Source: Rhynchopus sp. YZ270_cl-10
Taxonomy: Eukaryota
Assembly (NCBI GenBank): GCA_964035575.1
Contig: OZ037839.1
Coordinates: 1,550,001-1,614,000, forward strand
Reading direction: 5' to 3'
DNA length: 64,000 nt
Positions within the stretch are counted from its first letter, which is position 1. Each line of letters begins with the position of its first letter. Under the pieces are notes generated by a model. The model ran no database searches, had not been told where the DNA came from, and saw only the letters and a list, made by a program, of their open reading frames with translations. Shown one piece after another: positions 7,150 to 40,173 of this stretch. A program made the position numbers and the translations under genes.

Positions 7150-8211
7150 ATGGAACTGTGTGTGCAGAGATATGATGATGAAACCAAATTCGTGATTGAG
7201 GTGGGTGAGAAGGACACAACGGAGACGATGCGGCAGAAGGTGGCGTCTGCAACAGGGTTGTGCGAAGACAGCTTCCGCATGGGCTTCGGAGGGAAGGAGG
7301 AAGGAGAGGACATCACAGAACTGAGTGCTGGAGACACAGTCGTGTTGACGAAAACTACTAAGTACGCATCTCTTGAAGCACTTCGTGCCTTGGGTGAGAC
7401 AGACATTTCCGAAGCGAGGTTGGCGACTGTGAGGGATCCTGAGGTGGCTTCTCTGCTTCTTCAGGCGGAGGTTGCGACTGTTATCCCGCACTATTTCTTG
7501 ATCGAAGCATCGTTTACGAGACTTGATCTCTCTGCTGTGTCTGGTGTGACGCAAATTGAGCAAGGCTTCCTCTGGAAGTGTGCGTCGGTGGAAACCGTTG
7601 ACTTGTCGGGATTGTGCAACGTTACGCACATTGAGGATGACTTTCTCTCTTACTGTACATCGTTGACAAGCCTTGACGTGTCAGGGTTCACTGGTGTGAC
7701 GGTGATAGGGGAGTCGTTCCTCCAAGGAAGTGGCGTCACAAATCTTGACTTATCCGCGATGACGAGTGTGACGAAGGTTGGTGACTACTTCCTGTACCAC
7801 TGCGAGTCGTTGACAAGTCTTGACATCTCAGGATGGCACAGAGTCACGCACATTCAGGCCGACTTCCTCTGGAACTGCACCTCGTTGGCAACCATTGATT
7901 TATCAGCTTTTTGCAGTGTCACGAAGATCGACACCGGCTTTCTCCGCTACTGCGAGTCGTTGACCACCATCAGCTTTTCAGGGATGACGAATGTGACGGA
8001 AATTGGGAGCGACTTTTGTTCGGCCTGCTCCGCGTTGACAACAGCAGACTTATCAGGAATGAGAAATATTAGTCGGATTGCTAGTGGTTTCCTGAAAGAT
8101 TGCACATCCTTGACCACGCTGGACATGTCAGGTTTTGGCAGGGACACAGAGATCGGGGACGACTTCCTGCTCAACTGCAACGCACTCACAAACAGTCGTC
8201 TTGCCAGGTAA
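7150..8211 (+). pseudogene. UBL + BspA-type LRR protein, copy 1 (~10 LRRs; +1 frameshift near 8190 and disrupted tail)
   Basis: ATG 7150 MELCVQ... begins a ubiquitin-fold-like N-terminus, followed by ~25-aa LRRs. An extra A (ctcacaAacagtc versus ctcacaacagtc in paralogs) moves the C-terminal TVVLPGNID segment into another frame (ORF 8135-8467). The tail homology resumes at 8720. Confidence 0.75.
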
Positions 8212-9106
8212 CATCGACATAGATGAGATTTCCCTCCCGCCTGAAGACCATGTCACGAGACAGGCCTTCGATGTACGTGTGCGTGAGATTTGCGCAAGGT
8301 TTACGGAACAGTTCGAAGATGTGTGGATAGAAGCTTTTGAGTCAGTACGAACAGACGTGTCTGGAAGTGCAAGACAATGCATCGCGATCGAAGGTGGACC
8401 CCCTTATTTTTATGGCCTCCCCTTAGAGAGCTTTTTTTTTGTCCTCCGTGAAGGAGGGTTTTTTTGAGTGTTTTCTTTGCATCGGACAGTGTTTCAAAGC
8501 TGTTCTCTTGTGAATACTGTTGCCCGCAGGTTGGCGAGCGACGATACCTGAAACACATTCGGTGTTCCGCTGTTGTTTATTCTTTGCCAGTTGTGAGCTG
8601 CATGACCGGAGTCGGTCCTAGCATGCAGACAGAATGAGAGTTTTTGATTAAGTCGAGAAAGGCAAAAGGTCCGCCCGCCATTGCCCCTGCCGCTACTGCG
8701 CTCCTGGAGCGCTACTTAGTTTGATGCAAGCACAAGAGGACAAAGAAGAGGAACAAAAAGAGGATTTGGAGAGTTGGGGGCAGCATAAACAGGAGCAGGA
8801 CAAGCTGGATGAACAGAGGGGTTTGGGGGGTTTGGTGATTAGTGTGAAGAACACTTCGGTGAAAATATCAACTTCATATATGGATTCACTTTTGAGCTGG
8901 GGTGGAATATTTGGCAGGTTTGGTGCACAACTCTGACAAACCGGAGTGTCCCACCACTTTTTGTGAACAACGTGTCAGCCCAGGGTCTTTTCTACCACAC
9001 ATAGTTAAGTGAAAAACAAACAAGAAAGCTATTTTGTTGTATCTTGCCTCCCTCCTCCTCCTTCTCAACACTTACCCCACAACAGAGCAACACTTTACTC
9101 GAAACA

Positions 9107-10732
9107 ATGGAACTGTGTGTGCAGGGATACGATGATGAAACCAAATTCATGATTGAGGTGGGTGAGAACGACACAACGGAGACGATGCGGCAGAAGGTGG
9201 CGTCTGCAACAGGGTTGTGCGAAGACAGCTTCCGCATGGGCTTCGGAGGGAAGGAGGAAGGAGAGGACATCACAGAACTGAGTGCTGGAGACACAGTCGT
9301 GTTGACGAAAACTACTAAGTACACATCTGTTGAGGAACTTCGTGCCTTGGGTGAGACAGACATTTCCGAAGCGAGGTTGGCGACTGTGAGGGATCCTGAG
9401 GTGGCTTCTCTGCTTCTTCAGGCGGAGGTTGCAACTGTTATTCCTGCCGGGTTCTTGAGCGAAGCATCGTTTACGAGACTTGATCTCTCTGCTGTGTCTG
9501 GTGTGACGCGAATTGAGTGCAGCTTCCTCTGCGGGTGTGCGTCGGTGGAAACAGTTGACTTGTCGGGATTGTGCAACGTTACGCACATTGGGAATCACTT
9601 TCTCTCTCGCTCCACATCGTTGACAAGCCTTGACGTGTCAGGGTTCACTGGTGTGACGGTGATAGGGAACGCGTTCCTCAAAGGAAGTGGCATCAGAGAG
9701 CTTGACTTATCCGCGATGACGAGCATGACGACGGTTGGTAAGAACTTCCTACACCGCTGCGAGTCGTTGGAAAGTCTTGACATCTCAGGATGGCGCAGAG
9801 TCACGCACATTGAGCACAACTTCCTGTCGAACTGCACCTCGTTGGCAACCATTGATTTATCAGCTTTTAGCAGTGTCACGAAGATCGACTCCGAGTTTCT
9901 CCGCAACTGCTCGTCGTTGACCACCATCAGCTTTTCAGGGATGACGAATGTGACGGAAATTGGGAACAGCTTTTGTTCGTCCTGCACCTCGTTGGAAACG
10001 ATTGACATGACAGCACTGCACAGGGTTGTGAAGGTAGGTCGCAACTTTCTTGAGAGGTGCACCTCGCTGGGAAGTATCGACCTTTCAGCTTTTGGCAGTG
10101 CGACAGACATTGGGTACGGCTTTCTTTTTCAGTGCTCATCATTGAAAACAGTTGATTTATCAGTGTTGCGCAGCATCACACACATTGAGAATAGCTGGAT
10201 GGAAGGGTGCTCCGCGTTGACAACAGCAGACTTATCAGGACTGAACAATGTTACGCACATTAGTGCACAGTTCCTGGATGAGTGCACATCCTTGACTACG
10301 CTGGACATGTCAGGTTTTGGCAGTGACACACTGATCCAACGTTACTTCCTGGACAACTGCAACGCACTCAGTGACACAAGGATCCAGCACAACTTCCTGG
10401 ACAACTGCAACGCACTCACAACAGTCGTCTTGCCAGGCAACATCGACATTGACGAGATGTCTCTCCCGAATGAAGCCCAAAAGAACCATGGCGCTGGCCT
10501 CACGAAGACCTTCCATGCATGTGTGCGTGAGATTTACGCAAGGTTTACGGAACAGTTCGGAGGTGTGCGGACAGAAGATCTGGTACGAACAGACGTGTCT
10601 GGAGATGCAAGACAATGTATTGCATTGAAAGCAGGACAAGAAGGAGAAGGTTTGATGCAAGCACAAGAGGACGAGGACAAGCAGGAACTGGACAAACAGG
10701 AGCATGACAAGCAAGGGTATTTGGAGGGTTAG
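9107..10732 (+). CDS. UBL + BspA-type (LRR_5-like) leucine-rich repeat protein, copy 2 (541 aa, ~13 LRRs, acidic tail)
   Basis: Intact ORF with consensus xIxxxFLxxCxSLxxxDLS. An upstream pyrimidine tract and ACAACAG acceptor are present. No signal peptide or TM segment is visible. Confidence 0.88.
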   Translation: MELCVQGYDDETKFMIEVGENDTTETMRQKVASATGLCEDSFRMGFGGKEEGEDITELSAGDTVVLTKTTKYTSVEELRALGETDISEARLATVRDPEVASLLLQAEVATVIPAGFLSEASFTRLDLSAVSGVTRIECSFLCGCASVETVDLSGLCNVTHIGNHFLSRSTSLTSLDVSGFTGVTVIGNAFLKGSGIRELDLSAMTSMTTVGKNFLHRCESLESLDISGWRRVTHIEHNFLSNCTSLATIDLSAFSSVTKIDSEFLRNCSSLTTISFSGMTNVTEIGNSFCSSCTSLETIDMTALHRVVKVGRNFLERCTSLGSIDLSAFGSATDIGYGFLFQCSSLKTVDLSVLRSITHIENSWMEGCSALTTADLSGLNNVTHISAQFLDECTSLTTLDMSGFGSDTLIQRYFLDNCNALSDTRIQHNFLDNCNALTTVVLPGNIDIDEMSLPNEAQKNHGAGLTKTFHACVREIYARFTEQFGGVRTEDLVRTDVSGDARQCIALKAGQEGEGLMQAQEDEDKQELDKQEHDKQGYLEG

Positions 10733-39525: not shown

Positions 39526-39898
39526 CATATGGTGTTGGGGTTGTGCCCCCAAATCCCAAACCACCACTCGCATACTCGAAACAGCATCAGCCCCCAAACC
39601 CCGTTGGCAGCTGAATGATGTGCGATAAAAACGATTGCGTTCGAAGGTGGACCAAGACTAAGCAATTATGTTTCATCGTACAAACTTTTCTTTCCCCGGG
39701 GGTTCGTGTTCAGCCTTTTTCAAGCTTTTGTGCGTCTATTTTCCTTTTAGTGAACTTCTCCCCTCTTTATCCCACAGAGTTCTCCTTTGCCAACCCCGAG
39801 TCTCTCGAGCATGTTATCACCCCATTTTGTTGTATCTTGCCCCCCTCCTCCTCCTTCTCAACACCACCCCACAACAGATCAACACTTCACTCGAAACA

Positions 39899-40173
39899 AT
39901 GGAACTGTGTGTGCAGGGATATGATGATGAAACCAAATTCGTGATTGAGGTGGGTGAGAACGACACAACGGAGACGATGCGGCAGAAGGTGGCGTCTGCA
40001 ACAGGGTTGTGCGAAGACAGCTTCCACATGGGCTTCGGAGGGAAGGAGGAAGGAGAGGACATCACAGAACTGAGTGCTGGAGACACAGTCGTGTTGACGA
40101 AAACTACTAAGTACGCATCTGCTGAGGAACTTCGTGCCTTGGGTGAGACAGACATTTCCGAAGCGAGGTTGGC
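39899..40173 (+). pseudogene. UBL-LRR family copy 6, 5' fragment only (UBL part)
   Basis: MELCVQ...SEARLA is followed by the same insertion as in copy 5, which then runs into the satellite. No LRR half is present in the window. Confidence 0.8.

What the first reader, a model, noticed from the sequence alone, without database searches (positions are those of the whole stretch)
7150..40173. Tandem array of UBL-LRR genes with codon-focused hypervariability: a candidate intracellular receptor repertoire in a protist
Seen: six paralogs are nearly identical in the UBL domain, in the LxxLDLS strands and at silent sites. They differ at fixed positions of nearly every LRR (xI-XXX-FL-XX-C). Repeat 2 reads EQGFLWK / ECSFLCG / EDRFLLG / EDNFLYG / EYRFLYG. 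Repeat 6 reads QADFLWN / EHNFLSN / QNNFLQN / ENGFLTN. Changes fall mostly on codon positions 1-2 (gcc/cac/aac; tgg/tcg/cag/acg). Known: this pattern typifies immune LRR receptors under diversifying selection, and UBL domains often dock on the proteasome or ubiquitin machinery. Inference: these are cytosolic variable binders (no signal peptide or TM) that couple recognition of foreign proteins to ubiquitin-type disposal. The variable surface is the IxxxFL side rather than the usual concave strand.
Basis: partly seen in the sequence, partly recalled or inferred. Interest (0 to 1): 0.85.

Follow-up and report, generated by a model that had tools for sequence, protein, structure and literature searches.

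The report
Diversifying ubiquitin-LRR binder family in protist
A single-celled eukaryote, likely a diplonemid, carries a tandem cluster from a family of roughly 250 proteins that join a constant ubiquitin-like domain to leucine-rich repeats, in which four positions per repeat change several times faster than silent sites, which likely marks a repertoire of inside-the-cell binders in an arms race with targets that are still unknown.

Summary
There are six copies, but only B, C and D are plainly intact. A has a frameshifted tail, E carries a 603-nt insertion, and F is a 93-codon stub with no repeats.

Each gene is a ubiquitin-fold domain, a three-helix cap and 8-13 BspA/TpLRR-type repeats of 25 residues. 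Variation sits at repeat positions 17, 18, 21 and 22. With the local silent rate, dN/dS there is 4-7, and a neutral hotspot is rejected (LRT 18-26; 0 of 200 recombination simulations reach 18). The same four positions lead in 53 independent paralog pairs. No adenine-directed mutator signature was found.

At least 253 proteins share the N-terminal module, none of the listed ones named. Some end in CaaX-like or NLS-like tails, and some carry B-boxes. One run that behaves as RNA covers the family.

TpLRR proteins are reported to have flipped curvature, so the variable side is likely the concave face after all. Disposal through the proteasome is unproven: the Ile44 equivalent is Gly/Ser/Glu and there is no diglycine. 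Verdict: a new architecture showing a known evolutionary pattern.

The parts
7150..8211 (+). Copy A: UBL, helical cap and 10 repeats; frameshift near 8190 removes the C-terminal cap (remnant reads on in another frame from 8192)
9107..10732 (+). Copy B, intact, 541 aa, 13 repeats plus a 48-nt internal duplication (10321-10418)
16170..17735 (+). Copy C, intact, 521 aa, 13 repeats; the copy that was modelled
16170..16376 (+). Ubiquitin-like domain of copy C (residues 1-69); Gly45 at the Ile44 position, no diglycine
16377..16496 (+). Three-helix segment of copy C (residues 70-109), conserved family-wide, likely the N-cap of the solenoid; no Pfam match
16497..17447 (+). BspA/TpLRR-type 25-residue repeats of copy C with hypervariable positions 17, 18, 21, 22
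22615..23817 (+). Copy D, intact, 400 aa, 8 repeats (five fewer than B, C and E)
25990..28180 (+). Copy E, 13 repeats, interrupted after codon 93 by an inserted element
26269..26871 (.). 603-nt dispersed element in copy E, between 19-nt direct repeats (26250-26268 and 26872-26890, one mismatch). Positions 26259-26880 read GT...AG (622 nt), so it could be an intron; splicing was not observed
39899..40177 (+). Copy F: 93-codon stub (UBL and part of the cap, no repeats), followed by 593 nt of the same element; 98.7% identical to the 5' part of E over 975 nt

Best explanation
These genes are recent tandem copies from a large family of ubiquitin-like-domain plus TpLRR proteins whose repeats are under diversifying selection at four positions, and they likely act as intracellular binders: the variable stripe would grip changing, probably foreign, proteins, and the constant ubiquitin-like module would hand the complex to one shared host partner, possibly of the ubiquitin-proteasome system. 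SHOWN: the architecture, fold classes, family size, focused dN/dS above 1, repeat-number change and frequent gene death. INFERRED, with odds: the four positions form one exposed, likely concave, binding stripe (about 0.8); the proteins work inside the cell (about 0.85); the driver is conflict with intracellular bacteria or viruses rather than selfish DNA or kin recognition (about 0.6); the UBL links to ubiquitin-type disposal (about 0.45), and if so by a surface other than the Ile44 patch.
For: SELECTION: M2a omega 10.7 on 19% of 414 codons, LRT 169 (103 with multi-hit); 40 of 41 sites with posterior above 0.9 lie in the repeats at positions 13-24, none in the UBL (the first repeat was misnumbered by one there and corrected). 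With positions fixed from other subfamilies and a local silent rate, omega is 5.0-6.7, LRT 25-85 against omega=1. Using the 50 variable columns alone with their own codon frequencies, omega is about 4, LRT 18, and 0 of 200 neutral-hotspot simulations with a new tree per repeat reach it.

REPLICATION: in 53 disjoint close pairs from other subfamilies, positions 17/18/21/22 differ in 60-78% of comparisons, positions 2, 3, 5, 7 in 9-17%, and the N-terminal module in 6%. Tyr/Trp/Phe/His make up 18.5% of those four positions against 0.4% at positions 2, 3, 5, 7 (1207 repeats, 203 genes), a bias typical of binding surfaces (general knowledge).

FOLD: model pLDDT 89. The best matches are bacterial cell-surface LRR structures (4fs7, Z 30.1, rmsd 3.6 over 341) and T. 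pallidum TpLRR (6mlx, Z 19.9, rmsd 2.8 over 195). The N-terminus matches ubiquitin (Z 10.1, rmsd 1.8 over 67).

FAMILY: 253 of 673 candidates share the module. Of 215 full-module proteins fetched, 204 have LRRs, 40 end in CaaX-like and 36 in bipartite NLS-like motifs (motif meanings recalled), both intracellular signals. Six relatives carry B-box and coiled-coil-like N-termini, and P0339 has an extra clear ubiquitin domain (E 1.4e-17). One unrelated protein with similar repeats has a weak F-box match below the cutoff.

TRANSCRIPTION: run X6 joins two GT-AG introns of the neighbouring gene and covers the D and E regions at 97% identity or more.

CONTEXT: diplonemids host secretion-system-rich bacteria free in the cytoplasm (10.1101/719211, passages).
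Against: No ligand or partner is identified. Ile44 is replaced and there is no diglycine. No F-box, RING, BTB or UBA was detected in the window proteins. With local silent rates the framework omega among the five young copies is 0.6-1.8, so purifying selection on the framework is weak in this sample; two of the five may be pseudogenes. Codon tests rest on five genes and my own likelihood code, not PAML. Concavity was not measured, because no coordinates were available, and a classical plant NLR LRR (7crb) also fits at rmsd 4.3 over 342 residues. RNA cover cannot be assigned to individual copies, X6 is not on record as RNA, and it also covers most intergenic bins. Two of three F-box-like candidates in unrelated proteins gave no Pfam match.
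Confidence: 0.42

Rival explanations
1. Variable intracellular binders without disposal: the repeats neutralise or sense a target, and the UBL is a folding, oligomerisation or signalling handle unrelated to the proteasome.
For: All selection evidence applies equally. Ile44 is lost and there is no diglycine. Many acidic and basic UBL positions away from the Ile44 face are 90-100% conserved. Non-proteasomal beta-grasp domains (PB1, FERM, UBX) also align at Z about 8.
Against: The closest sequences outside the family are ubiquitin itself. B-box fusions and an extra ubiquitin domain in relatives point towards the ubiquitin system.
Confidence: 0.25
2. The arms race is internal: the binders restrict retrotransposon or other selfish-element proteins, or serve kin or self recognition.
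For: 36 of 215 members have NLS-like tails. Mobile elements repeatedly hit these genes (E, F, and UBL-OTU and UBL-RT read-throughs P0182 and P0227). A large retroelement lies beside the array.
Against: Insertions into multicopy genes are expected anyway. Most members have no NLS-like tail. No link to any element protein was tested.
Confidence: 0.15
3. Surface or peripheral adhesins like the BspA-like families of Trichomonas and Entamoeba, used for prey or substrate recognition after non-classical export.
For: Same LRR class. Entamoeba BspA-like proteins lacking signal peptide and TM were found at the plasma membrane, some with CaaX (PMC5349171 and PMC2843621, passages). 40 of 215 members have CaaX-like ends.
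Against: An N-terminal UBL and NLS-like tails fit an intracellular role. The window copies have no CaaX, signal or TM-like stretch. The word ubiquitin does not occur in the Trichomonas family paper.
Confidence: 0.1
4. No selection: a local mutational hotspot, a DGR-like templated mutator, or gene conversion homogenising everything but relaxed loop positions produces the pattern.
For: The silent rate is 3-8 times higher around the variable codons. Multi-nucleotide differences are common. D and E share a near-identical tract in repeats 3-5 (3 of 156 differences against 7-16 for other pairs).
Against: The omega=1 hotspot model is rejected with its own silent rate (p about 5e-7) and under simulated recombination and doublet mutation (0 of 200). 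Adenines at fourfold sites are not hypervariable (2 of 19 polymorphic against 10 of 85 for C, G, T), and 10 of 19 invariant first- or second-position columns in the variable codons are A. No separate template repeat was seen in the self-comparison. Other non-core positions stay conserved.
Confidence: 0.08

Closest known systems
TpLRR/BspA-like LRR class (Pfam LRR_5, PF13306); expanded protist families TvBspA (911 genes, PMC2843621) and EhBspA (116, PMC5349171)
   Same: Repeat class, fold, large expansion, tandem clusters, CaaX-ended members (passages read).
   Different: Repeat is 25 residues with FL in place of AF. There is an N-terminal UBL and helical cap, no signal or TM in the window copies, NLS-like tails in relatives, and a likely free-living host lineage. 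Codon-level selection on one face is measured here.
Unstable F-box (and MATH-BTB) ubiquitin-ligase adaptor families of Caenorhabditis and plants (PMC8665587, passages; Thomas 2006, recalled)
   Same: Constant N-terminal module, positively selected substrate-binding part, birth-death evolution, proposed recognition of foreign proteins.
   Different: No F-box or BTB. The constant module is a ubiquitin fold, so there is no known route to a cullin ligase.
UBL-UBA proteasome shuttles (Rad23, Dsk2) and other UBL adaptors (NUB1, midnolin, BAG6)
   Same: N-terminal non-cleavable ubiquitin fold (Z 8-10).
   Different: Ile44 equivalent lost, no UBA detected, hundreds of copies with a hypervariable binder. 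Shuttles are conserved low-copy genes (recalled).
Candidate immune LRR repertoires outside animals and plants: brown algal ROCO-LRR (PMC11378527, search listing only), FNIP/FGxxFN families of giant viruses and slime moulds (PMC9525666, passages)
   Same: Large LRR repertoires that vary at a few fixed positions per repeat.
   Different: No ROC-COR or NB-ARC switch, no one-exon-per-repeat shuffling (window genes are single open frames), a different repeat class and N-terminal module.

Membership tests
TpLRR/BspA-like LRR | Consensus C/NxxLxxIxLxxxLxxIgxxAFxx (PMC13117327) and Pfam LRR_5 | tested here: met
   LRR_5 scores 64-117 bits against cutoff 27.7 in 5 of 5 repeat-bearing copies. The family consensus follows the pattern with two extra residues.
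TpLRR/BspA-like LRR | Fold closest to TpLRR-type solved structures | tested here: met
   4fs7 Z 30.1, rmsd 3.6/341; PcpA 4cp6 Z 22.8; T. pallidum TpLRR 6mlx rmsd 2.8/195; most classical LRRs rmsd 5-14.
TpLRR/BspA-like LRR | Beta-strands on the convex side (flipped curvature) | tested here: inconclusive
   Stated for the class in PMC13117327. Not measurable without coordinates, and 7crb also fits at rmsd 4.3.
Ubiquitin-like (beta-grasp) domain | Ubiquitin fold | tested here: met
   Foldseek and VIA top hits are ubiquitin, rmsd about 2 over 67-72 residues. Pfam ubiquitin E 1e-4 to 4e-3, below the curated cutoff.
Conjugatable ubiquitin-like modifier | Diglycine after the last strand | tested here: not met
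   0 of 115 aligned members.
UBL-UBA proteasome shuttle | Ile44-centred hydrophobic patch | tested here: not met
   Gly45 aligns to Ile44; Gly/Ser/Glu in 95% of 115 members. The role of Ile44 in receptor binding is recalled.
UBL-UBA proteasome shuttle | UBA or other ubiquitin-binding domain | tested here: inconclusive
   The three-helix segment has no Pfam match at E 10, but the fold search barely covered it.
F-box/SCF substrate receptor | F-box motif | tested here: not met
   No F-box in 6 of 6 copies or in the helical segment.
F-box/SCF substrate receptor | Works like one: constant N-module with positively selected binding domain and birth-death turnover | tested here: met
TRIM proteins | RING, B-box, coiled coil | tested here: not met
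   Absent from the window copies. Six relatives have B-box matches, one above the cutoff, and no RING match.
Diversity-generating retroelement target | Adenine-specific variation and a template repeat | tested here: not met
Intracellular immune receptor | Binds a foreign ligand and triggers a defence outcome | not testable with these tools
   Needs pull-downs and infection assays.

The most novel reading that the evidence does not exclude
A protist has built an antibody-like intracellular repertoire of about 250 binders. One ubiquitin-derived handle is shared by all members, interchangeable tails post them to nucleus, membranes or cytosol, and they route captured endosymbiont or giant-virus proteins to the proteasome or Cdc48 without a cullin ligase, using a repeat scaffold that giant viruses also appear to carry.
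Probability: 0.2. Interest if true: 0.88.

Novelty: new variant of a known kind. Interest (0 to 1): 0.62.

Why it matters
How free-living single-celled eukaryotes recognise intracellular bacteria and viruses is largely open. This family gives named positions, a measured selection signal and a constant module to pull down, so the question becomes testable. It would also be the first case I could find of a TpLRR solenoid used as a diversified intracellular binder, and of a ubiquitin fold standing where F-box or BTB modules stand in comparable families. The evolutionary pattern itself is well known, which caps the surprise.

Tried and rejected
- No whole genome is held, so other copies could be studied only as proteins and codon tests use five genes.
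- No RNA holder was listed as such. X1, guessed RNA, gave one 151-nt piece on C and nothing on 18900-28300, so it was not used.
- No splice joint across the insertion in E appeared; short contigs in a multicopy family cannot show it.
- Alternative genetic codes were scanned; the standard code reads the genes.
- A DGR-like mutator was rejected.
- A UBA reading of the helical segment got no Pfam support. TpLRR-type structures align from model residue 82-83, which favours an N-cap.
- ESM Atlas gave only generic ubiquitin hits (0.87 or less) and LRR_5 hits (0.90).
- Viral contig scans with copy C, P0325 and P0331 found no relative. An alignment scan gave 7 loci of 605 stretches, six by the short N-terminal motif, three named GVMAG, one matching the repeat region at 38%; I did not confirm an LRR ORF there. 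BFVD hits were generic.
- Rfam found nothing meaningful at 39500-51500.
- Literature searches for diplonemid LRR or BspA families found nothing relevant; the library is open-access only and supplements were not read. The 2023 TpLRR structural review (recalled) is not held. PMC11674859 passages were not useful.
- No earlier scan notes exist for this sequence or genome.
- No complex prediction was run, because no candidate partner sequence was available.
- One search had the first repeat misregistered by one residue; one search supersedes its per-position figures.
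Full report
ORGANISM. The window is eukaryotic and reads in the standard code. At 41907-41945 it has a 39-nt exon-like stretch that differs by about three changes from the spliced leader listed as 'Euglenozoa 14' in PMC3795323 (passage). I recall that type as diplonemid. 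A related UBL without repeats comes from a record named Rhynchopus euleeides (P0297). A diplonemid is therefore likely but not proven.

WHAT IS THERE. Six copies lie on the + strand. B, C and D are intact. A has a frameshift after its last repeat. E is interrupted after codon 93 by a 603-nt element between 19-nt direct repeats. F is a duplicate of the 5' part of E with no repeats. Repeat number is 8, 10 or 13 and changes by whole repeats. Each ATG follows a pyrimidine tract and an AG, as expected for a trans-splice acceptor (inference), so the longer upstream frames are probably not translated.

DOMAINS. Residues 1-69 fold as ubiquitin, with about 25% identity, and the nearest sequences outside the family are polyubiquitins. 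Gly45 aligns with Ile44, and this position is Gly, Ser or Glu in 95% of 115 members; none has a diglycine. Residues 70-109 form three helices with no Pfam match, probably the N-cap. The repeats are Pfam LRR_5. The model (pLDDT 89) is closest to bacterial cell-surface LRR structures and T. pallidum TpLRR. PMC13117327 (passage) states that this class has its beta-strands on the convex side. The IxxxFLxxC side would then be the concave one. I could not measure this, and one classical plant LRR also fits at rmsd 4.3.

SELECTION. I wrote a codon-model likelihood for the five repeat-bearing copies over 414 codons. M2a gives omega 10.7 on 19% of sites (LRT 169; 103 with multi-nucleotide changes), and M8 against M8a agrees. 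Silent divergence is 3-8 times higher near the variable codons, so that figure is inflated. I therefore fixed positions 17, 18, 21 and 22 from other subfamilies and gave them a local or their own silent rate: omega 5.0-6.7, LRT 25-85 against omega=1. The strictest version, the 50 variable columns with their own codon frequencies, gives omega about 4 and LRT 18. None of 200 neutral simulations with a fresh random tree per repeat reached that; the maximum was 9.8. In 53 disjoint close pairs outside this subfamily the same four positions differ in 60-78% of comparisons, position 24 in 55%, positions 2, 3, 5, 7 in 9-17% and the module in 6% (first three repeats only, 11 closest paralogs left out). 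The four positions accept all 20 residues and are rich in Tyr/Trp/Phe/His (18.5% against 0.4%). There is no adenine bias. Against this reading, framework omega among these young copies is near 1 (0.6-1.8 with local rates), and only five genes could be tested at DNA level.

FAMILY. 253 of 673 candidates of 220-700 aa share the module; the 120 listed are unnamed. The top hits lie on 40 different large contig lengths (counted by eye), probably one assembly (inference; it might hold two haplotypes). Of 324 proteins fetched, 215 have the whole module, 204 of these have repeats, and 29 keep only the UBL, some running into retroelement frames, so turnover is high. Forty end in CaaX-like and 36 in bipartite NLS-like motifs (my patterns; meanings recalled), and 139 in neither. 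Six carry B-box-type N-termini, and one also has a clear extra ubiquitin domain. In the 1.84-billion-protein search I saw no named full-module hit from another organism, but most rows were not traced to a source. Similar repeats without the module occur in unnamed proteins, three with an N-terminal motif also found on giant-virus contigs and one with a weak F-box match. Both are leads only.

EXPRESSION. Run X6, kind not on record, joins two GT-AG introns of the neighbouring EF-2-like gene that runs X3 and X4 read through, so it behaves as RNA. It lays 319 contigs at 97% identity or more on 18900-28300, including the D and E coding bins, and has no depth in one intergenic bin. This indicates transcripts of the subfamily but not of a given copy, and depth cannot rank expression.

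MECHANISM. The best reading is a repertoire of intracellular binders with a variable stripe and a constant handle. The handle likely meets one shared partner, since it is conserved across about 250 genes. A ubiquitin-system partner is plausible from its ancestry and the B-box and ubiquitin fusions, but loss of Ile44 argues against ordinary shuttle docking. Lys30 (ubiquitin Lys29) is invariant and Lys49 (Lys48) is 78% conserved. That fits a ubiquitin-fusion-degradation route (recalled) but also a structural role, so it is a lead. Diplonemids host cytoplasmic bacteria with secretion systems (10.1101/719211, passages), a plausible driver. No target is known.

COMPARISON AND NOVELTY. The family works like the unstable F-box families of nematodes (PMC8665587, passages) but has no F-box. 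Its repeats belong to the class expanded in Trichomonas and Entamoeba, whose members are described as surface proteins. Six earlier notes of this scan describe F-box/LRR arrays with the same pattern in other genomes (unchecked), which shows the pattern is common and lowers surprise. I found no description of a UBL-TpLRR family in searches (open-access library; supplements not read). Verdict: real feature, selection well supported, function inferred; a new variant of a known kind, interest 0.62.

Noticed in passing
window 41902-50194: A non-LTR retroelement (2603-aa ORF with reverse transcriptase and a weak OTU match, poly-A at 50140-50194) starts directly after a spliced-leader-like exon whose 3' 16 nt are duplicated (41929-41961). 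It resembles the CRE/SLACS elements that target spliced-leader genes (recalled).
   Followed up: partly
window 40768-41907 and 50190-64000: A 406-bp unit in 2.8 and at least 34 copies, 100% identical, flanks the retroelement. It matches the sequence just upstream of the spliced-leader-like exon but lacks the exon itself. It could be an amplified spacer or an assembly collapse.
   Followed up: no
window 26259-26880: The element inserted in copy E has a target duplication containing AG|GT, so the insert reads as a GT-AG intron with the frame preserved: a possible case of intron gain from a mobile element. The element has high summed depth in DNA-like runs and in X6.
   Followed up: partly
window 19090-21850: An EF-2/EF-G-like gene sits inside the array between C and D, with two GT-AG introns (21160-21320 and about 21389-21688) seen spliced in run X6; runs X3, X4 and X6 carry a 15-nt deletion at 20565 relative to the window.
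   Followed up: partly
window 38359-39525: A 388-aa ORF with several hydrophobic stretches, an N-terminal MGCG (possible lipidation) and no Pfam match.
   Followed up: no
P0339, P0075, P0258, P0296, P0326, P0329: Family members with B-box-type zinc fingers and a helical region in front of the module; P0339 adds a second module UBL and a ubiquitin domain ending in LRGG.
   Followed up: partly
P0325, P0327, P0331; L001-L007: Among the closest repeat matches outside the family are long proteins that begin with a KYxKYKxKY motif, also found on giant-virus contigs; possible sharing of this repeat type between giant viruses and protists.
   Followed up: partly
window 11659-13647, 35772-36599: Long perfect microsatellites (5-, 7-, 8- and 9-nt units, up to 235 copies) between the gene copies.
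   Followed up: no
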